From: Candidatus Terraquivivens tengchongensis
GTDB taxonomy: Archaea; Thermoproteota; Nitrososphaeria_A; Caldarchaeales; Wolframiiraptoraceae
Length of the DNA: 64,000 bases
NCBI GenBank assembly: GCA_023261845.1
Contig: JALNJZ010000002.1
Span: 160,001-224,000, forward strand
Direction of reading: 5' to 3'
Below the pieces are notes generated by a model. That model ran no database searches. It saw only the letters and a program-made list of their open reading frames with translations, and had not been told where the DNA came from. This document shows positions 30,426 to 37,522 of this stretch, piece by piece; within the stretch, counting starts at the first letter, position 1, and every line of letters starts with the position of its first letter. A program made the translations under genes and the position numbers.

Positions 30426-31145
30426 ATGATAGGCCAACCGCAACACATTAAATCAGCAAAAGGCGAAGTTGCAGAAAGGGTTGTGGTTGCAGGAGACCCG
30501 GCTAGGGTTGTTCAACTTTCTAGAATGTTAGAAAGACCAAAACTCGTTAATGAAAACCGTGGCTTTTTGACATACACTGGTTACTTTAATGGTACACCAA
30601 TAACGGTTTCTTGTCACGGCGTTGGCGGCCCATCGTCTGCGATAGTTTTTGAGGAGCTTGTCATGTTGGGTGCCAAGGTCGTCGTTAGGCTTGGCACGAC
30701 TGGAGCATTTTTAAAGCACATGAAGATCGGCGAGGTGGTCATTCCGACTGGGGCAGCATACTTAGGGGGAACGCTTGCGCAGTACGTACCCGATGCCCAC
30801 ATAACCCCTGTTCCTAGCTTTGACGTGACGAATGAGTTGGTTAATACCGCAAGGGAGGAGGGGCTGACGTACCACATCGGGCCTGTATTCTCGAGCGATG
30901 CATTCTACGCTGAGGACCCTGAGTTCGTCAAGAGGTGGTCAAGCAAAGGCTACATATCCGTCGAGATGGAGTGTGCAACACTCTTCGGCCTCGGGATGCT
31001 ACGTGGTGTTAAAACAGGTGCTATGCTCCTCATAAGCGACAACTTGGCAGAGATGACGCCCATGGTAAATGCTGAATATCTTAAGCCATACGTCGAGAAG
31101 GCAGGAAGGGCAGTCTTCAAAGCACTCCTGAGGATAAAGCTCTAA
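30426..31145 (+). CDS. deoD: Purine nucleoside phosphorylase (PNP/UDP family)
   Basis: GDPAR, NRG, HGVGGPS...EEL, RLGT, SSDAFY, VEME; start set at ATG 30426. Confidence 0.9.
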   Translation: MIGQPQHIKSAKGEVAERVVVAGDPARVVQLSRMLERPKLVNENRGFLTYTGYFNGTPITVSCHGVGGPSSAIVFEELVMLGAKVVVRLGTTGAFLKHMKIGEVVIPTGAAYLGGTLAQYVPDAHITPVPSFDVTNELVNTAREEGLTYHIGPVFSSDAFYAEDPEFVKRWSSKGYISVEMECATLFGLGMLRGVKTGAMLLISDNLAEMTPMVNAEYLKPYVEKAGRAVFKALLRIKL

Positions 31146-31909
31146 GATACGCTCTCCAAAACCGACTTGAGCGACGTCACGAAGTCTGACACTTTTTTCT
31201 TCGCAACACTAGCAGTATTATCCTCTATTATATTGACTAGCTCGCTACCTACGACTATTCCGTCAACCATACCTACTAACGTCTTCGCATAGGACAGGTC
31301 TCTTATACCGAAACCAGCCACCAAAGATGTATTGCCGACCAGCCCCCTGACTCTTGTAATGGACTTAGCAGGATCTATGTAAGCTACTTCGCCCGTAACC
31401 GACGATATGCCGATATAAACAAATACTGGATTGTAGCTCGCCATAATCTTGATTGTATTATCTGGATAATTGTAGCTCGCGAAGAACAGTTTTTCGAGAT
31501 TTACGGTGTCGCAGGCTTTTGCATATTCGTCCAAAGCCGAAGGACCAACCATGCCCAAGTCCGGTATTAGCGCACTAGAAGCTCCAGTCTCTGCGACCGA
31601 ATGCATAAACTCCGTTAACTGTCCAGCGGTATTCAGATAACACAACAGTATTTTCGTTGCGTTAACGTTTTTAGCAATATCTAGCGCCATGCCCTTATCT
31701 ATACCCTGCTCCTTTACTCTCCAATAAGATAGCCTTATGCTCGTGCCGTCATAGATGGCGATTTTAGGTGGTATGCCAAGTTCAAGTATATCAGCACCAG
31801 AACTTTTGAGTATATCACAATATTCCATGAATGCATCAGGTGTCGGATATCCCAAAGTCATGTAGGTTATAAGACATTTCTTCTTTCTCGTAATTTCTCG
31901 TATGTTCAA
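31142..31909 (-). CDS. trpA: Tryptophan synthase alpha chain
   Basis: YMTLGYP, LELGIP, YDG, IPDL, GFGI, DGIVVGS; TTG start overlapping the trpF stop. Confidence 0.9.
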   Translation of the reverse strand: MNIREITRKKKCLITYMTLGYPTPDAFMEYCDILKSSGADILELGIPPKIAIYDGTSIRLSYWRVKEQGIDKGMALDIAKNVNATKILLCYLNTAGQLTEFMHSVAETGASSALIPDLGMVGPSALDEYAKACDTVNLEKLFFASYNYPDNTIKIMASYNPVFVYIGISSVTGEVAYIDPAKSITRVRGLVGNTSLVAGFGIRDLSYAKTLVGMVDGIVVGSELVNIIEDNTASVAKKKVSDFVTSLKSVLESVS

Positions 31910-32559
31910 CAAACCTCGCACCGTTTTGCATTCTTTACGAATTCAAAAATCTTTTTTCTGTCCTTTATACCGGGACTGACCTCTACACCGGACGATACGT
32001 CAACGGCATAAGGCCTCACGCTACGTACAGCTTCTGCCACGTTCTCAGGTCTTAGACCGCCAGCAAGTATTACGGGCTTAGGGTAAAGGCACTCAACAAC
32101 CTTTCTACTTATCTCCCAGTCGTGAATCTTACCCTGACCACCGTACCCTCCGACGAGCGAATCAAGCAACAAGGCGTCGAACTCATTTATTGAGTTTCTC
32201 AGAGATTCAACGTCAGAAACTTCATTGACGTTGATCGCCTTTATTAACCTAATATCGGACAACGCATTACGCAACTTTTCGGCACCCGAAAAGTCGTTAC
32301 CGTGTATCTGCAATGCAGAAGGTCTAAGCAGGTTACGAACTCTAAGTAGCTCGTCAAAATCTGATGTAACAGTTACTACCACGCTATCTACAAATACGGG
32401 TACTGTTTTTATCAACTCTTTGGCCCTTTCGTAAGTTAGATTTCTCGGCGATAGTGGTGAGGCTACGACGAATCCTACAGCATCGGCGCCAGCATCCACA
32501 GCATCCATTAGGTCTTGCTCGCGTGTTATGCCGCAGATCTTAACCCTTACATAGGTCAT
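31906..32559 (-). CDS. trpF: Phosphoribosylanthranilate isomerase
   Basis: VKICGIT, QIHG, LAGGL, VDVSSGVE. Confidence 0.96.
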   Translation of the reverse strand: MTYVRVKICGITREQDLMDAVDAGADAVGFVVASPLSPRNLTYERAKELIKTVPVFVDSVVVTVTSDFDELLRVRNLLRPSALQIHGNDFSGAEKLRNALSDIRLIKAINVNEVSDVESLRNSINEFDALLLDSLVGGYGGQGKIHDWEISRKVVECLYPKPVILAGGLRPENVAEAVRSVRPYAVDVSSGVEVSPGIKDRKKIFEFVKNAKRCEVC

Positions 32560-33334
32560 GGCCTCTCACAAGCTCTCTTACGCTACTCTCAATGTTCGTT
32601 GACGTCATTATGAACGTCCCGACCAAGAAAGCATCTGCACCGAGATTTTTCAGGAGAATAACTTGGGCAGGGCTGTTTATACCACTCTCACACACGACCA
32701 GTTTGCGCTTAACTTTTGCACTCGTAAGTATTCGTTTTGAAATATTGATATCGACCTCCAACATCTCTAAATCACGGTTGTTTATCCCTAGCATGTCTGC
32801 CTCCGTATCCATGCCGGAAAGAAACTCTTCCTCTGTGTGAGTTTCTAAAAGTACTTCAAGACCTAACGAGTGAGCCGTTTTTATCATGTCGTCTAAATCT
32901 TCATCGCACATGCTCTGGTCGTAAACTTTCTTTATTAGGAGAACAGCGCTCGCTCCTAACCTCGATGCGGCCTCAAGCTGAATACTGCTAACGATTACGT
33001 CCTTCATAAGTATTGGTATGCTGACAGTTTCTCTAACAGCTCTCAGCTTATCTAACGAGCCATCGAAGAATGTGTTTTCCGTCAAAACCGATATGCCTAC
33101 AGCTCCGCCACGTTCCATAGCCTTAGCCATGCTTTTGACGTCTCCATGTATGCGCCTTCCCATGGTTGGCGACGTCAGCTTCAGTTCAGCTATAATAGGA
33201 ATGGCCTTGCAGGCGAGTATCGCCTCTTTTAAGCTCGGAGGTTTTGAAAATGTTGCCGAAGAAGGTACATCATAGTAGCCGTTCTTCACGCGCTTGATGG
33301 CATTTTCGACCAAAACCTTAAGGAAGTTGGCCAT
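32540..33334 (-). CDS. trpC: Indole-3-glycerol-phosphate synthase
   Basis: IAELKLTSP, SVLTE, LMKD, GINNRDL, ESGI. Confidence 0.95.
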   Translation of the reverse strand: MANFLKVLVENAIKRVKNGYYDVPSSATFSKPPSLKEAILACKAIPIIAELKLTSPTMGRRIHGDVKSMAKAMERGGAVGISVLTENTFFDGSLDKLRAVRETVSIPILMKDVIVSSIQLEAASRLGASAVLLIKKVYDQSMCDEDLDDMIKTAHSLGLEVLLETHTEEEFLSGMDTEADMLGINNRDLEMLEVDINISKRILTSAKVKRKLVVCESGINSPAQVILLKNLGADAFLVGTFIMTSTNIESSVRELVRGHDLCKG

Positions 33335-34388
33335 ATATCTCCTCCATCCTTTCAAGCTTGGATGGATCACCGCTAAGTTTCACCAGCTCCTTCAACTTTT
33401 TGTACGCCTTGCCACTCTCCAAAGACTCCCTTGCCAGCTCCATACCTTCGAGAAAGCTATCCGCCTGTCCGCCCAATAATATGCCCAAAGCAGCGTTGAC
33501 TAAGACAGCATCCTTCTTAGGGCCGCCTTTACCATTCAGAATCATAAAGGCTACTTGTGCCGCCTCCTCTTGTGTCTTAATTTCTAGGTCTTCCCGTCTG
33601 CAAGGCTCAACACCAAAATCTCTTGGTGTCAACTCAAGAATCCTAACATTATTATGCTTCAACCATGCAACCCTTGTTTTACCTATTATCGACACCTCAT
33701 CTAAACCGTCAAGACCGTGCACGATGAAGGCCTCTTCGCATCCCAAGTTCATCAACACATATGCTAGCGTATTCATGATTTTATCATCATATACACCTAA
33801 TAGCTGGGCGTTTACGTCGGCTGGATTCGCAAGGGGTCCGAGAATATTGAATACAGTCCTTATTCCCATCTCTTTCCTTACCCGCTGAACGTTTTTCATA
33901 GCCGGGTGGAAATATGGGGCGTACATGAAGCCTATGCCAACAACCTCGATAGCCCTTTCGACCGATTCAGGCTCCTGCTCAAGCCTTAAGCCAAACATTT
34001 CAAGCAAATCAGCGCTGCCGCACTTTCCAGAAATTGCTCTGTTCCCATGCTTCGCTACTTTGACACCAGCTCCAGCAACAACGAAGGCCGCAACCGTGCT
34101 TATGTTGAATGTTTTGATCCTATCGCCGCCAGTTCCGCATACATCTATAAGCCTTCCATTTATCTTGGGTTTTACCTTACAACAGTATTCCTTCATAACC
34201 TTTGTGAAAGCGGTAAGTTCTATAACAGACTCACCCTTCATTCTGATTGCCGTCAAGAAGCTTGCAAGCTGGGCATCAGTAACATTACCATCCATTATGC
34301 TCCTCATAGCGCTTTCGGCCTCATCGTAGTTTAAGTCGTACCCCTCAACGAGCTTCCTAAGTATCTCCACAAACATATCAAAAACCAT
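33318..34388 (-). CDS. trpD: Anthranilate phosphoribosyltransferase
   Basis: DVCGTGGD, NIST, KHGN, GSAD, HPAM, GLDE. Confidence 0.96.
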   Translation of the reverse strand: MVFDMFVEILRKLVEGYDLNYDEAESAMRSIMDGNVTDAQLASFLTAIRMKGESVIELTAFTKVMKEYCCKVKPKINGRLIDVCGTGGDRIKTFNISTVAAFVVAGAGVKVAKHGNRAISGKCGSADLLEMFGLRLEQEPESVERAIEVVGIGFMYAPYFHPAMKNVQRVRKEMGIRTVFNILGPLANPADVNAQLLGVYDDKIMNTLAYVLMNLGCEEAFIVHGLDGLDEVSIIGKTRVAWLKHNNVRILELTPRDFGVEPCRREDLEIKTQEEAAQVAFMILNGKGGPKKDAVLVNAALGILLGGQADSFLEGMELARESLESGKAYKKLKELVKLSGDPSKLERMEEIYGQLP

Positions 34389-34959
34389 CCAAGAAATTTT
34401 TCAGAATCTTTTTACCATCCTCGCACATCACGGACTCAGGATGGAACTGCACGCCTTCTATAGGATGCTCTATATGGCGAACACCCATTATCTCATAGTC
34501 ATCAATAGATTCAGCCGTAATTACAAGACATGAGGGCAAGGATTTCCTCTCCCCGCAAAGGGAATGGTAGCGGGCAACCCTCAGAGGATTCTTGACGTTT
34601 TTGAAGAGACCCGTACCGTCATGCCTGATAAGACTAGTCTTTCCATGCATGAGTCTCTTCGCCTTTACAATTTTACCACCGAAGGCATAAATTATGCTCT
34701 GATGCCCTAAGCAAACACCGAGTATAGGTATTTTGGGTCCTAACTCCTTGACTATGTCGATACACGAGCCGACGTACTTCGGGTCTTGGGGAGATCCAGG
34801 ACCTGGCGATAAGATTATCCTATCAGGCTCCAGCATTTTAGCACGCTCCAAAGTTATCTCATCATTCCTGTACACAAGAGGTCTGCCGCCCAATTCACCG
34901 ACGTACTGGACTAAGTTGTAAACGAAGGAATCGTAATTATCTATGATGAGAACCCTCAT
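34378..34959 (-). CDS. trpG: Anthranilate synthase component II
   Basis: IDNYDSF, SPGPG, GVCLGHQ, QFHPES. Confidence 0.96.
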   Translation of the reverse strand: MRVLIIDNYDSFVYNLVQYVGELGGRPLVYRNDEITLERAKMLEPDRIILSPGPGSPQDPKYVGSCIDIVKELGPKIPILGVCLGHQSIIYAFGGKIVKAKRLMHGKTSLIRHDGTGLFKNVKNPLRVARYHSLCGERKSLPSCLVITAESIDDYEIMGVRHIEHPIEGVQFHPESVMCEDGKKILKNFLDGF

Positions 34960-36272
34960 TTTCCTTCACCACTAGACATCTTCAACGCTTCCACGAGCGG
35001 GGCAAGTTTGTGTTCAGTCTCCATCCATTCGTTTTCAGCCTTTGACTCCGCGACTATACCTGCGCCTGCTTGAATGAATGCTCTACCATTGTTGATGAAC
35101 ATCGTCCTAATCGTTATCGCAAAGTTTGAGTTGCCGTTGAATGATATGTAGCCGACCGAGCCAGCGTACGGTCCCCTCCTCGTAGGCTCCAATTCCTCTA
35201 TGATCTCCATCGCTCTAACCTTTGGCGCACCCGTTACAGTGCCTGCTGGAAACACGGCTCTAAGCGCGTCGTAGCAATCGCAACCTTCCCTTAGTTTACC
35301 GACAACCCTTGAGACTATGTGAAGCACGTGACTGTACTTGTAGACCTTCTTCAGCTCCGAGACCCGCACGCTACCAAATTTTGAGACCTTGCCTAAGTCA
35401 TTCCTCGCAAGGTCGACGAGCATCATGTGCTCAGAAAGTTCTTTTGGGTCATTGAGCAGGTCCTTTCTTAGCATCTTATCGTTTCCGCGTGGTCTTGTGC
35501 CAGCGATGGGCATAGTTTCGACGAAATTACCATGGACCCTAACGAGCGCTTCTGGGCTGGAGCCTATGATGTATCTTTCCCCCATCTTCAAGATGTACAT
35601 ATAAGGAGAAGGATTGAGCCCACGTAACGCTGAATAGAACGTAATCACGCTGCCCTTAACGTTAAAACTGTACTTCTTTGATAGGACAACTTGGAAAGCA
35701 TCACCGGCGGCTATGTATTCCTTGACAACCTCTACCATTGAGATGAACTTCTCTTTATCAACGTTGGGCCTGAGCTCCGTGTGTAATAGGGGTTGTTGCT
35801 CCGGCTTTTTCACGAGTAAGTGCGTAATCTCATCAAGTCTATCCTCCTTAAGGTAATAGTAGTGTACCCTCCTGTCCTTTCCATTAAATAGTAGGCCGTC
35901 ATAGTATGCTCCAAACTCCATGTCTGGAAATCCATGGTCATCGACGGTTTTCTGAGGCAACTTTTCCAAGTACCTGACCAGATCGTATGATACGTAGCCA
36001 ACGGCGCCTCCAGCAAATTTTAACTTTGCATGGTTGTGATGTATCTGACCTACAGCTTCTCTCAAAGTTTGCAAGGGCTCCGATGTCCTTTTGCGCAGTT
36101 CGCCCTCGGGCGACTTAATAACGCACACACCATCTTTAACTATAACAGTTTTCAGAGGATTAAAGCCCACTAAGCACTGTTGGGCAATCCTACGCCTTGA
36201 ATTTGTAAACTCTATGAGGTATGCATATTCGTAATGCTCGCTCAGGTTTGTGAAAACTTCAATGGGTGACAA
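34956..36272 (-). CDS. trpE: Anthranilate synthase component I (5' end ambiguous; see findings)
   Basis: [45 protein letters not shown]; frame stays open upstream to 36344 without a start codon. Confidence 0.93.
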
Positions 36273-36315
36273 ATCAGTGTATACGTCTTTAAACCTTGGC
36301 CGTTCGTATGTCTGA

Positions 36316-36380
36316 TCAATGCCAAAGGCACATGCCCCGCAACCTTAGCGTAGTTACGAAGATTGATTGTATTTAATAAT
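36316..36380 (-). promoter_or_regulatory. trp operon promoter/leader: TATA-like box, SD-like AGGTTG and 5-codon ORF MCLWH*
   Basis: Minus strand reads ATTATTAAAT (36380-36371)...AAGGTTGCGGGGC-ATG TGC CTT TGG CAT TGA (36333-36316). Confidence 0.6.
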
Positions 36381-36535
36381 TAGTGCACAAAAATGCTCAA
36401 CGCAAAATCGAGAATAATGGCCCAGAAAAACGACGTTTAAACCCAAAAGGATCTAAGTTCTTTTTGAATGTACAATTCTGTTACATTAAAAACGGCTCCA
36501 TGGTTATGTTTAGATACTGCCCATAGCAGTTATGC

Positions 36536-37522
36536 ATGCGTATGAGAGAGCGGAACACCATAACGGTATGGGTTCCTTCTAGCTCCGCAAACCTCGGACC
36601 AGGTTTCGACGTGCTTTCCATAGCACTTAGAGAACCGTCCCTAAAAGTGAGCCTGTCATTCTGTGGCGGTGATAATATCAAGCTTGTACTCAAAGGTAAA
36701 TATGGAGAAACTCTTTGCGCCAGCCCAGAAGTTCACTCCGGATGCAGAGCACTTAGAGCACTCATGAACAAGTACAGCATCAATGAAGGGCTTGAAATGG
36801 TTGTGTATGTTGACATACCGCCGAAAAAGGGCCTCGGACTTTCTGGTGCAGAGGCCGCTGGTGCCGTAGTCGCATTAAACGAATTGCTTTCCTTGGCACT
36901 ATCGAAAGATGAGTTAGTTCACTACGCATCATATGGTGAGCCGGAAGGGCATTTGGATAACGTGTCTGCCTCGGTATGCGGAGGCTTTAACATCGTGGTA
37001 AAAGACTACGTCAGCGGAATGCCGCGCGTTTATAACTTCAGACCACCATCAGACCTTGGCACAGTCGTCATAGTTCCGAATATAGAAAAGAAATCCACGG
37101 AGGATGCAAGAAAGGCCGTTCCCGCATTCGTCCACAAGAGCGATATGATCGGGAACATTTCCAGAGTTGCTGCAGTATCTGTAGGTTTTGTCACAGGCGA
37201 CGTGGAGTGCATTCTGAGAAACATAGCATGGGATACTGTTGTCGAGAGGGCTAGAGCTGATTCTCAGGTGTACGGAAATGGTATAGACTGGCGATTCTTG
37301 GAAGAAGAGAAGCTCTACTTGTTCAAAAAGTACGGCATCGCAGAGACAATAAGCGGTGCTGGCCCCTCAAGGATTTTGTGGTATAGTATATCACGGCATT
37401 CACAGGTGGTAGATGAGGCCTTAGGCTATGTTGTAGACCGTATAAAAGAGCTCGGGTATAGCGTGGAAGGGATTTTCAAGACGTATCCGTCTGGAATTGG
37501 TGCGTATAAATTATCGGAATGA
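36536..37522 (+). CDS. thrB: Homoserine kinase (GHMP family)
   Basis: PSSSANLGPGFD, IPPKKGLGLSG, EGHLDN, ISGAGPS. Confidence 0.9.
   Translation: MRMRERNTITVWVPSSSANLGPGFDVLSIALREPSLKVSLSFCGGDNIKLVLKGKYGETLCASPEVHSGCRALRALMNKYSINEGLEMVVYVDIPPKKGLGLSGAEAAGAVVALNELLSLALSKDELVHYASYGEPEGHLDNVSASVCGGFNIVVKDYVSGMPRVYNFRPPSDLGTVVIVPNIEKKSTEDARKAVPAFVHKSDMIGNISRVAAVSVGFVTGDVECILRNIAWDTVVERARADSQVYGNGIDWRFLEEEKLYLFKKYGIAETISGAGPSRILWYSISRHSQVVDEALGYVVDRIKELGYSVEGIFKTYPSGIGAYKLSE

What the first reader, a model, noticed from the sequence alone, without database searches (positions are those of the whole stretch)
36272..36347. Candidate tryptophan-sensing +1 ribosomal frameshift at the start of trpE (CUU-UGG, a prfB-like site with Trp in place of the stop)
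Seen: on the minus strand a TATA-like box (36380-36371) and SD-like AGGTTG precede ATG 36333, which reads ATG TGC CTT TGG CAT TGA (MCLWH*). The trpE frame is +1 relative to it, is open from 36344, and has no ATG/GTG/TTG until an SD-less TTG at 36272, directly before SPIEVF. A slip from CUU to UUU gives [27 protein letters not shown]... (458 aa). Known: CUU-U is the +1 shift site of bacterial prfB, driven by a slow A-site codon, and TrpE proteins normally have a stretch upstream of the SP-x-E-x-F motif. Inference: with Trp plentiful, UGG is decoded and translation stops two codons later; when Trp-tRNA is scarce the ribosome shifts and makes TrpE, the first gene of an overlapping trpEGDCFA operon. 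I know of no such control described for a trp operon. Caveat: a one-base insertion (ATG-t-GCC-TTT) from decay or assembly error gives the same picture, and the window has other 1-nt frameshifts.
Basis: partly seen in the sequence, partly recalled or inferred. Interest (0 to 1): 0.85.

Follow-up and report, generated by a model that had tools for sequence, protein, structure and literature searches.

The report
Tryptophan-sensing frameshift opening archaeal trpE
The first gene for making tryptophan in this archaeon has no usable start codon of its own and seems to be reached only when ribosomes slip one base forward at a tryptophan codon in a tiny upstream reading frame, an arrangement kept across two archaeal phyla that would let the cell gauge its tryptophan supply directly.

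Summary
On the minus strand, ATG 36333 TGC CTT TGG CAT TGA 36316 overlaps trpE, which lies in the +1 frame. That frame has no ATG/GTG/TTG from its upstream stop to TTG 36272.

The same layout (short leader ORF ending NTT-TGG, trpE in +1) is in:
- 35 of 35 genomes of the window's class whose trpE 5' end is assembled;
- 54 of 65 trpE loci sampled elsewhere in the phylum;
- 35 of 44 loci in the class of a Methanobacteriaceae record;
- 2 of 77 bacterial control loci, both chance-like.

Across 69 aligned sites only T-T-T-G-G and a G 11 nt upstream are invariant. A G-rich stretch complementary to the 16S rRNA 3' end sits at fixed distance from the site, whatever the position of the start codon. Of the 69, 39 have no canonical in-frame start upstream of the site, and 14 have a stop codon directly before TTT.

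Best reading: a prfB/Ty1-like programmed +1 frameshift with Trp codon UGG as the slow A-site codon, giving feedback control of the trpEGDCFA operon. The frameshift and its Trp dependence are inferred, not shown. Eight full-text searches found no description of it.

The parts
36469..36474 (-). TGTACA hexamer upstream of the promoter (possible operator of a Trp repressor)
   Evidence: Read. TGTACA-like hexamers occur upstream of 42 of 69 leaders against 7 of 69 control windows of equal length downstream. The name 'TRP box' and its consensus are recalled, not taken from a call.
36384..36389 (-). TGTGCA hexamer directly upstream of the TATA box
   Evidence: TGTGCA or a one-base variant stands at this place in all 7 loci of the genus (exact in 5; TGCGCA in L003, L004 and L006, TATGCA in L008).
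36370..36380 (-). TATA-like box ATTATTAAATA of the trp operon promoter
   Evidence: ATTAAATA lies 36 nt before the leader ATG in all 7 loci of the genus. The start of transcription near 36347 is predicted from this distance, not measured.
36342..36346 (-). Shine-Dalgarno AAGGT serving the leader ATG (AGGT, then 8 nt, then ATG)
   Evidence: The 16S 3' end of this genome reads ...GGATCACCTCCT. In this genome AGGT peaks 7-9 nt before first ATGs of long ORFs.
36335..36338 (-). Internal G-run (GGGG) 7 nt upstream of the shift codon; proposed frameshift stimulator that pairs with the 16S 3' end
   Evidence: It is only 1 nt from the ATG, too close to serve it (GGGG peaks 9-10 nt before starts). It is kept in 7 of 7 loci of the genus. 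G at -11 from the T of TGG is invariant in 69 of 69 sites. The window -16..-6 pairs with the 16S tail at mean -8.0 kcal/mol, and 69 of 69 are at or below -4.
36316..36333 (-). Leader ORF ATG TGC CTT TGG CAT TGA (MCLWH*)
36321..36327 (-). Proposed +1 shift heptamer CTT TGG C (P site CUU slips to UUU; A site UGG)
   Evidence: T-2, T-1, T0, G+1 and G+2 are invariant in 69 of 69 sites; C at +3 in 43 of 69.
34956..36323 (-). trpE body in the +1 frame (from GGC 36323; 455 codons plus stop), anthranilate synthase component I
   Evidence: Synonymous share of codon differences in the first 17 codons after the site is 0.32 in this frame against 0.11 and 0.15 in the other two. The AlphaFold2 model has pLDDT 83.6 and pTM 0.87, with strand 10-14 upstream of residue 18, which is TTG 36272.
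34378..34959 (-). trpG (glutamine amidotransferase); its start overlaps the trpE stop by 4 nt
   Evidence: PF00117, 4.8e-59.
33318..34388 (-). trpD
   Evidence: PF00591, 1.4e-89; PF02885.
32540..33370 (-). trpC
   Evidence: PF00218, 9.1e-61.
31906..32559 (-). trpF
   Evidence: PF00697, 2.6e-40.
31142..31921 (-). trpA
   Evidence: PF00290, 1.1e-31.

Best explanation
TrpE is made by a programmed +1 ribosomal frameshift that reads the supply of charged tRNA-Trp.

Proposed steps:
1. Ribosomes start at AUG 36333, which has an AGGU Shine-Dalgarno 8 nt upstream, and translate Met-Cys-Leu.
2. With CUU in the P site and UGG in the A site, one of two things happens.
3. If Trp-tRNA arrives quickly, the leader is read in frame (MCLWH) and translation stops at UGA 36316. 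No TrpE is made.
4. If Trp-tRNA is slow to arrive, peptidyl-tRNA-Leu slips from CUU to UUU, GGC is read next, and the ribosome goes on to make the 458-aa TrpE (MCL-GIDQ...).
5. The G-run just 5' of the site pairs with the 3' end of 16S rRNA. It lies 1-2 nt closer to the P-site codon than is usual at start codons, so it may favour forward movement as in bacterial prfB.
6. Because trpG, D, C, F and A follow with overlapping stops and starts, the shift probably gates the whole operon.

Shown: the anatomy, its conservation, the lack of any other start, the complementarity to rRNA, and the coding signal in the +1 frame.
Inferred: that shifting happens, that it depends on Trp, the role of the G-run, and the coupling to downstream genes.
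For: (1) Conservation of the layout. It is present in 35 of 35 genomes of the class that have the trpE 5' end; 37 of 76 genomes have TrpE and 2 of those are cut at contig ends. Elsewhere in the phylum it is in 34 of 40 sampled loci, 20 of 20 further loci of family f5 and 0 of 5 from five other families. In the class of a Methanobacteriaceae record it is in 35 of 44 loci.

(2) Control. The same rule on 79 other TrpE loci passes 3. One is that Methanobacteriaceae record. The other 2 are bacterial, with sites 48 and 52 codons from the aligned gene start.

(3) Position matrix of 69 sites. Only TTTGG and G-11 are invariant. There is no conservation 3' of the site. The P-site codon is always NTT and never a synonym.

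(4) No other way in. 39 of 69 have no ATG/GTG/TTG in the trpE frame upstream of TTT. 14 of 69 have a stop codon directly before TTT. 26 of 69 have no start from the preceding stop to 25 codons past the site.

(5) The start codon sits 2 to 7 codons before NTT in different lineages, yet the G-rich element keeps its distance to the site. Its duplex with the 16S tail averages -8.0 kcal/mol against about -2 in control windows. Its spacing is 1-2 nt shorter than the normal SD-to-start spacing in this genome. The review PMC5009743 (passages read) gives 3 nt as the spacing for +1 stimulation in bacteria.

(6) The leader start is the one that is served. GGAGG-type SDs lie 7-11 nt before the leader ATG in several lineages. 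In 18 loci of the 69-site set the TATA box lies 21-25 nt before the leader ATG, and at about 22 nt in most of 20 further f5 loci as printed. That predicts leaderless mRNAs starting on that AUG.

(7) The leader stop lies 1 to 46 codons after UGG, as expected if nothing after UGG matters in the zero frame.

(8) The arrangement is unique to trpE in this genome.

(9) A beta strand at residues 10-14 of the post-shift protein is modelled with high confidence, and the +1 frame shows a coding signature right after the site.
Against: - No experiment, proteomic or ribosome-profiling data were available, so frameshifting itself is not shown.
- In this genome NTT-TGG pairs inside ORFs are not avoided (302 seen, 299 expected). 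The heptamer alone is therefore not strongly shift-prone, and the model leans on the G-rich element and on Trp-tRNA limitation.
- In 24 of 69 Thermoproteota sites, in all 20 further f5 loci and in all 30 site-bearing Methanobacteria loci printed, the G-rich element itself contains an in-frame GTG three codons before TTT. Ordinary initiation is formally possible in those lineages.
- With GUU or AUU in the P site, the first base does not re-pair after the slip.
- A shift at codon 3-8 of an mRNA is much closer to the start than in prfB (codon 26; PMC5009743).
- UGG could simply be a constitutively slow codon rather than a sensor.
- ARAGORN did not call a tRNA-Trp gene in the genome, so its anticodon and copy number are unknown.
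- RNA contigs of a relative begin 14-17 nt downstream of the leader AUG. Contigs cannot place a 5' end, but this does not prove the AUG is on the mRNA.
Confidence: 0.68

Rival explanations
1. Programmed +1 frameshifting happens but is constitutive. UGG, read by a scarce tRNA, merely sets a fixed low ratio of TrpE to leader peptide. Trp control is exerted elsewhere, for example by a repressor on the TGTACA boxes or by feedback inhibition of the enzyme.
For: All the anatomy for a shift fits this as well. Trp is a rare residue here: TGG is 1.03% of codons. TGTACA-like boxes flank the promoter in 42 of 69 loci, and a Trp repressor acting on trpE promoters is known in Methanothermobacter (PMC6737238, passages read).
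Against: A fixed ratio could be set by any slow codon or by a stop. Yet UGG is invariant in 69 of 69 Thermoproteota sites and in all site-bearing Methanobacteria loci. The arrangement was found only at the Trp operon in this genome. A shift that depends on a free A site must respond to Trp-tRNA supply to some degree.
Confidence: 0.12
2. There is no frameshift. TrpE starts by ordinary or near-cognate initiation in its own frame (GTG three codons before TTT where present; something unrecognised elsewhere). The overlapping ATG...TGG ORF is a competing or regulatory upstream ORF.
For: An in-frame GTG is at -3 codons in 24 of 69 Thermoproteota sites, 20 of 20 further f5 loci and all 30 site-bearing Methanobacteria loci printed. 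ATG or GTG lies directly before TTT in 4 loci. Short ORFs that sense amino acids are common in bacteria (recalled).
Against: - 39 of 69 sites have no canonical in-frame start, and 14 have a stop directly before TTT. This includes the window's own genus (7 of 7).
- The GTG is part of the G-rich element and has no SD of its own. In Methanobacteria the GGTGAT lies 3-4 nt before the leader ATG but 14 nt before the GTG.
- Where GTG exists the TATA spacing predicts an mRNA that begins on the leader AUG.
- A ribosome stalled at UGG would cover the GTG and lower TrpE when Trp is scarce, which is the wrong direction.
- This reading does not explain why the codon before TGG is always NTT.
Confidence: 0.12
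3. In this genome TrpE simply starts at TTG 36272 (438 aa) and the upstream leader is irrelevant.
For: It is the first canonical start in the frame. The Pfam N-terminal domain match begins at residue 24 of the read-through, just before it.
Against: - TTG is at that codon in only 2 of 7 loci of the genus; the others have TTA, CTA or CTC.
- There is no SD before it.
- The 17 codons upstream show a coding signature in the trpE frame.
- Those codons form a confidently modelled first beta strand, with pLDDT block 91.
Confidence: 0.03
4. The conserved TTTGG and G-rich stretch are a DNA operator or an RNA element (riboswitch-like or protein-binding), and the reading-frame relations are incidental.
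For: The conservation is at nucleotide level, and repressor boxes exist nearby.
Against: - The frame relation (a start codon in frame with TGG, trpE in +1) holds in every site-bearing locus even though leader length varies.
- There is no Rfam match at E up to 1.
- There is no convincing conserved fold: -8.1 kcal/mol and 1 covarying pair among 7 sequences.
- TrpE would still lack a start.
Confidence: 0.03
5. Sequencing or assembly error, or a decaying gene.
For: A single extra base would give the same picture in one genome.
Against: The same frame arrangement is found in 35 of 35 genomes of the class and in two phyla. TrpE is otherwise intact.
Confidence: 0.01

Closest known systems
Autoregulatory +1 frameshift of bacterial release factor 2 (prfB): CUU_UGA_C with an internal Shine-Dalgarno 3 nt upstream
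   Same: A short zero-frame ORF is followed by the functional protein in +1. The P-site shift is CUU to UUU, with UUU_U as a minority variant; here NUU, and UUU in Methanobacteria. The A site is slow and its speed reports the thing being regulated. C follows the A-site codon (43 of 69 here). An rRNA-complementary G-rich element lies just 5' of the site. PMC5009743, passages read.
   Different: Here the A-site codon is a sense codon (UGG) and not a stop. The sensed molecule would be charged tRNA-Trp, not the gene's own product. The host is archaeal. The element is 4 nt (7 nt in this genus) rather than 3 nt from the shift codon. The shift occurs at codon 3-8 rather than 26.
Yeast Ty1 / ABP140 / EST3 +1 frameshift (CUU_AGG_C)
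   Same: It is a seven-base site differing by one letter from the one here (CUU_UGG_C). A sense codon in the A site is slow because its tRNA is scarce, and peptidyl-tRNA-Leu slips to UUA/UUU. The next +1 codon is GGC. PMC5009743.
   Different: It sets a fixed ratio in a eukaryote and is not known to sense an amino acid. No upstream rRNA-pairing element is involved.
Leader-peptide attenuation of bacterial trp operons (trpL)
   Same: A very short ORF with Trp codon(s) lies ahead of trpE, and its translation speed reports charged tRNA-Trp and sets operon expression (recalled textbook knowledge; PMC6737238 cites a review of it).
   Different: Attenuation acts on transcription termination through alternative RNA hairpins and uses tandem Trp codons. 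Here there is one Trp codon, no conserved hairpin, the leader overlaps trpE, and the output would be a change of reading frame.
'Hungry codon' frameshifting under amino-acid starvation (Gallant and co-workers)
   Same: Frameshifting is caused by an empty A site when one aminoacyl-tRNA is limiting. PMC5009743.
   Different: It is known as an error seen in laboratory constructs. The 2016 review says of productive use for starvation-specific trans-frame proteins that 'no examples are known'.
TrpY repressor and TRP boxes of Methanothermobacter thermautotrophicus
   Same: It is the only described Trp control of an archaeal trpE operon (PMC6737238, passages). TGTACA-like hexamers flank the TATA box here and in relatives.
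   Different: It acts on transcription. It does not explain the leader ORF, and its original paper could not be read. The box consensus is recalled.

Membership tests
Anthranilate synthase component I (TrpE) | Pfam Anth_synt_I_N plus Chorismate_bind domains over the full length | tested here: met
   PF04715 at 1.4e-26 and PF00425 at 4.6e-91. The model has pTM 0.87.
prfB-type autoregulatory +1 frameshift | Short zero-frame ORF with the main coding sequence in +1, and no independent start for the latter | tested here: met
prfB-type autoregulatory +1 frameshift | Shift site CUU_U (rarely UUU_U) that allows re-pairing on UUU | tested here: met
   NTT-T in 69 of 69 sites, of which CTT 37, GTT 27, ATT 3, TTT 2. 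TTT-T in Methanobacteria. This is sequence only; slippage was not measured.
prfB-type autoregulatory +1 frameshift | The A-site codon is the stop codon UGA, read by the gene's own product RF2 | tested here: not met
   The A-site codon is UGG in every case, and the product is TrpE, not a decoding factor.
prfB-type autoregulatory +1 frameshift | Internal Shine-Dalgarno-like element 3 nt 5' of the shift codon | tested here: inconclusive
   An rRNA-complementary element is present in 69 of 69 sites. It lies 4 nt from the shift codon (7 nt in this genus). That is 1-2 nt shorter than the normal start spacing in this genome. Its effect is untested.
Ty1-type hungry-codon +1 frameshift | Heptamer CUU_NGG_C with a slowly read sense codon in the A site | tested here: inconclusive
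   The sequence fits (CTT TGG C here). The abundance and charging of tRNA-Trp are unknown, and tRNA-Trp was not called by ARAGORN.
Leader-peptide transcription attenuator (trpL type) | Alternative terminator and antiterminator hairpins after a leader with tandem regulatory codons | tested here: not met
   There is a single Trp codon. The consensus fold of 7 genus sequences is -8.1 kcal/mol with 1 covarying pair. Nothing is conserved 3' of UGG.
TnaC-type Trp-sensing arrest peptide | Conserved residues after the Trp and a defined stop position at which free Trp blocks release | tested here: not met
   The leader tail after W varies from 0 to 45 residues and is not conserved.
Known RNA families (Rfam 15) | Match to a curated covariance model | tested here: not met
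   No match at E up to 1 in 36150-36550 on either strand.

The most novel reading that the evidence does not exclude
An ancient 'frameshift attenuator' shared by archaea. The ribosome itself reads the level of charged tRNA-Trp at NUU-UGG and, by slipping +1, opens trpE and with it the trp operon. This would be the first natural case of hungry-codon frameshifting used to control an amino-acid pathway. It is conserved from Thermoproteota (including ammonia-oxidiser-like and Bathyarchaeia-like lineages) to Methanobacteria. It would therefore either predate their split or have been transferred as a module.
Probability: 0.55. Interest if true: 0.95.

Novelty: new variant of a known kind. Interest (0 to 1): 0.92.

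Why it matters
How archaea match amino-acid synthesis to supply is largely unknown. A 2019 paper states that for Trp little is known beyond one repressor in one methanogen, and that Crenarchaeota may use a third mechanism (PMC6737238).

If this reading holds, several things follow:
- A large part of the Archaea, including abundant ammonia oxidisers and methanogens, would control the Trp pathway by a decoding trick. It combines the logic of bacterial attenuation with the mechanics of prfB.
- It would fill the gap named in the standard review of recoding, which says of productive hungry-codon frameshifting that 'no examples are known'.
- It would be a rare cellular programmed +1 frameshift in Archaea.
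- It would show that the 16S 3' end can act on elongating archaeal ribosomes.
- It would correct the start of trpE in hundreds of genomes, where gene callers must be choosing a GTG, a late start or a truncated gene.
- It offers a compact, portable amino-acid sensor for synthetic biology.

Tried and rejected
- **Assembly error or pseudogene:** rejected by conservation.
- **TTG 36272 as the start:** rejected.
- **Transcriptional slippage:** rejected on the sequence, by inference. Most lineages have only three T in a row.
- **A tRNA with an enlarged anticodon loop:** ARAGORN without intron handling listed four odd '???' tRNAs. They became ordinary intron-bearing tRNAs with -i, so there is no support. 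tRNA-Trp was not called at all.
- **Avoidance of NTT-TGG in genes, as a sign of shiftiness:** none found (302 against 299 expected).
- **Other genes with the same device in this genome:** 10 loose hits and 6 hits of a wider scan. Only trpE holds up.
- **A conserved RNA fold or known RNA family:** none.
- **The search for related loci on genome contigs:** It was useful only as a control set and for two archaeal leads.
- **RNA evidence:** for a relative's locus (L147), contigs of RNA runs X5 and X6 (one study) and X9 (another) start at 396, 393 and 396. The leader ATG is at 379, and the contigs leave 224-392 uncovered. A fourth run has one 57.8 kb contig across everything, which is possibly DNA. 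Contigs cannot place a 5' end. At most this is a weak hint that there is no long 5' leader. It neither shows nor excludes that the AUG is on the mRNA.
- **Papers:** the Methanothermobacter trp paper (Xie and Reeve 2005) is not held. The TRP-box consensus and any mapped trpE start there are therefore recalled or unknown. Supplements were closed, so lists of conserved frameshifts in earlier surveys could not be checked.
- **Literature:** eight full-text searches found no description of a frameshift at trpE. For these I saw listings and abstracts only. I read passages of PMC5009743 and PMC6737238.
Full report
**The observation**

One search shows the following on the minus strand:
- a TATA-like box, ATTATTAAATA, at 36380-36370;
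- AAGGT at 36346-36342;
- a G-run at 36338-36335;
- the short ORF ATG (36333) TGC CTT TGG CAT TGA (36316).

The frame one base further on is open from 36344. It encodes a complete anthranilate synthase component I: Pfam Anth_synt_I_N at 1.4e-26 and Chorismate_bind at 4.6e-91. Its first ATG/GTG/TTG is TTG 36272. Downstream follow trpG, trpD, trpC, trpF and trpA, with overlapping ends.

**Not an error**

The window is contig C2, 160001-224000, of a 1.22 Mb, 14-contig genome rated 99.4% complete. All six other species of its genus (TrpE 75-81% identical) carry ATG TGY CTT TGG CAK plus a stop 1 to 5 codons later, with trpE in +1. Five of the seven loci have no TTG at the position of 36272.

In the 17 codons between the site and that position, the synonymous share of codon differences among the seven is 0.32 in the trpE frame. 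It is 0.11 and 0.15 in the other two frames.

An AlphaFold2 model built from a 9-row alignment has pLDDT 83.6 and pTM 0.87. It places the first beta strand at residues 10-14 of the post-shift protein (pLDDT block 91). That is upstream of residue 18, which is TTG 36272. TrpE therefore begins upstream of 36272, in a frame that has no start codon.

**How far the layout reaches**

- *The window's class.* It holds 76 genomes in one order, four families and 15 genera. TrpE was found in 37 genomes, and two of those genes are cut by contig ends. All 35 others, from 10 genera, have a short ORF that ends ...NTT TGG with trpE in +1.
- *The rest of the phylum.* A sample of 401 genomes gave 226 with TrpE. 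I fetched 40 trpE 5' regions from other families, and 34 have the layout. The six without it start with an ordinary ATG or GTG. Twenty further loci of family f5 all have it. Five genomes of five other families, where trpE lies inside an operon, do not. That makes 54 of 65.
- *Naming the phylum.* One of these contigs is the public record titled 'uncultured Nitrososphaerota archaeon' (L022 = L149). I therefore take the phylum to be GTDB Thermoproteota. Which class the window belongs to I did not establish.
- *Control.* The same rule applied to 79 other TrpE loci from a public scan (77 bacterial) passed three. Two bacterial hits lie 48 and 52 codons from the aligned gene start and look like chance. 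The third is a record titled 'uncultured Methanobacteriaceae archaeon'.
- *Methanobacteria.* Following that record, 60 of 61 genomes of its class have TrpE. Of 44 loci read, 35 carry ATG-x-x-AGT GAA TGY/TAY TTT TGG with trpE in +1. Seven of the nine without it are longer TrpE types with an ordinary ATG or GTG start.
- *One other archaeon.* A Hydrothermarchaeota genome has an ordinary start.

**What is conserved**

I aligned the 69 Thermoproteota sites on the T of TGG.
- The only invariant positions are T-2, T-1, T0, G+1, G+2 and G-11.
- G or A is at -12 (55 G, 14 A), G at -9 in 51, and C at +3 in 43.
- Position -3 is C 37, G 27, A 3, T 2.
- Nothing is conserved after +3.
- The codon before TGG is always NTT and never a synonymous Leu, Val, Ile or Phe codon.
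- TTT in the trpE frame is never TTC.

These constraints make sense only if both frames matter at this one spot. The leader start lies 2 codons (this genus), 4 (32 of 34 loci outside the class), 5 (typical in the class), 6 (Methanobacteria) or up to 7 codons before NTT. The G-rich element keeps its distance to the site throughout. In this genus it lies outside the leader ORF, 1 nt before the ATG. It is therefore an RNA-level element tied to the site, not part of a conserved peptide.

**The G-rich element**

The 16S rRNA of this genome ends ...GGATCACCTCCT. The mRNA window -16..-6 pairs with that tail at a mean of -8.0 kcal/mol, and 69 of 69 are at or below -4. Control windows average about -2, and the region of the initiation SD averages -4.4.

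At the first ATG of long ORFs in this genome, the usual distances between motif and ATG are:
- GGTGA, 5-7 nt;
- GAGG, 8-11 nt;
- GGGG, 9-10 nt.

At the site, the element lies 4 nt (GGTGG type) or 7 nt (GGGG, this genus) from the zero-frame P-site codon. That is 1-2 nt too close, and a +1 step relieves it. This is the geometry described for prfB, where the spacing for +1 stimulation is 3 nt (PMC5009743).

**No other way into trpE**

Of the 69 sites:
- 39 have no ATG/GTG/TTG in the trpE frame between the preceding stop and TTT;
- 14 have a stop codon directly before TTT (xTA GTT TGG);
- 26 have no canonical start from that stop to 25 codons past the site.

The rest have an in-frame GTG three codons before TTT (24; it is the GTG inside GGTGR), or ATG/GTG one or two codons before (5), or a far upstream ATG (1). 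All 20 further f5 loci and all 30 site-bearing Methanobacteria loci printed have the GTG. This is the main point against a universal frameshift.

Against the GTG as the real start:
- It has no SD of its own. In Methanobacteria, GGTGAT lies 3-4 nt before the leader ATG and 14 nt before the GTG.
- In exactly the lineages with GTG, the TATA box lies 21-25 nt before the leader ATG: 18 loci, 12 of them at 22 nt, and about 22 nt in most of the 20 f5 loci printed. That predicts leaderless mRNAs beginning on that AUG.
- Elsewhere the leader ATG has a GGAGG-type SD 7-11 nt upstream.
- In this window, AGGT lies 8 nt before ATG 36333.

**Mechanism proposed**

1. Ribosomes start on the leader AUG.
2. With NUU in the P site and UGG in the A site, prompt arrival of Trp-tRNA keeps the zero frame. 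Translation ends 1 to 46 codons later.
3. A vacant A site lets peptidyl-tRNA slip to UUU. Two of three pairs are kept, or three with CUU via G:U and with UUU.
4. GGN is read next and TrpE is made.

This is the logic of prfB with a sense codon, and the heptamer CUU_UGG_C differs by one letter from the Ty1 site CUU_AGG_C (PMC5009743). The link to Trp is inferred from two facts. The A-site codon is UGG in every carrier. The device sits only at the head of the Trp operon, and it is unique in this genome.

**Weak points**

- Nothing here shows a shifted protein.
- NTT-TGG is not avoided in the genome's ORFs (302 seen, 299 expected).
- The shift would occur unusually close to the start.
- tRNA-Trp was not found by ARAGORN.
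- RNA contigs of a relative start 14-17 nt after the leader AUG, which contigs cannot resolve.
- There is no conserved RNA fold and no Rfam family at the site.

**Comparison with what is known**

It works like prfB and Ty1 but is a member of neither. The stop-codon and RF2 feature of prfB is not met. It is not a transcription attenuator, having no hairpins and a single Trp codon. It is not a TnaC-like arrest peptide, since nothing is conserved after W.

The 2016 review of recoding says of productive hungry-codon frameshifting that 'no examples are known'. It lists only a few archaeal cases, none in amino-acid synthesis. A 2019 paper says little is known of archaeal Trp control beyond TrpY. Eight full-text searches found nothing on a trpE frameshift. 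Supplements and the TrpY paper could not be read.

**Verdict**

My odds:
- about 0.8 that TrpE is reached by a +1 shift at this site;
- about 0.68 for the full Trp-sensing model.

It is a new variant of a known kind of recoding, of high interest because of its breadth and because a single proteomic peptide or reporter series would settle it.

Noticed in passing
window 36469-36474 and 36384-36389 (minus strand); upstream of the leaders in L119-L158 and L166-L196: TGTACA-like hexamers flank the TATA box of the trpE promoter, often as TGTACA-N5-TGTAC directly upstream of TTTAAATA. They occur in 42 of 69 upstream windows against 7 of 69 downstream control windows. Exact TGTACA occurs in 18 against 0. 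The same promoter design is visible in Methanobacteria. This suggests that a TrpY-like repressor site travels together with the frameshift leader.
   Followed up: partly
L198-L204 (Methanobacteria class): A second and a third, longer TrpE type (open frames about 500-590 aa) start with an ordinary ATG or GTG (MFSPSLEEV..., VFYPKIEE...) and have no leader. The leader goes with one TrpE lineage, not with the host class as such.
   Followed up: partly
L197 (G415) and L208 (G447): Two Methanobacteria trpE loci have neither the NTT-TGG site nor an obvious canonical start near the beginning of the homology. L197 reads ...GGAGGTGTCGATATCAAC... How they start is unexplained.
   Followed up: no
L134, L135, L153 (family f10): These trpE genes seem to start at an in-frame GTG. 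In L134 and L135 an overlapping ATG ORF in another frame also contains ...GTC TGG... (MMLSKSVW / MLLFKSVW). It may be chance or a diverged relative of the leader.
   Followed up: no
L169, L178-L180: Some Methanobacteria loci have an ATG in both frames four bases apart: ATG CAT GGG AGT GAA TGT TTT TGG, and ATG GGA GTG AAT GTT TTT GGC. Both routes to TrpE are formally open there.
   Followed up: no
whole genome G000: ARAGORN called 35 tRNA genes, many with introns, but no tRNA-Trp. Without intron handling it reported four tRNAs with odd anticodon loops, which resolved to intron-bearing tRNAs.
   Followed up: partly
positions -6 to -4 of the 69 aligned sites: The E-site codon before NUU starts with a pyrimidine in 62 of 69 sites and almost never has G at its first or third base (1 of 69 each). 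This may be a further constraint on the shift, since E-site effects are known for prfB (recalled).
   Followed up: no
G063:C98 (L109) and G367:C1: The open frame around trpE is much longer there (657 and 695 aa, the first with an internal TGA). These may be fusions or read-through with a neighbouring gene.
   Followed up: no
G000 contig C12, plus strand near 76937...GAGGCGCTTG ATG TTT TGA... precedes a 355-codon +1 frame with no nearby start. It resembles a prfB-style UUU_UGA site (duplex with the 16S tail -5.6 kcal/mol). I did not examine it.
   Followed up: no
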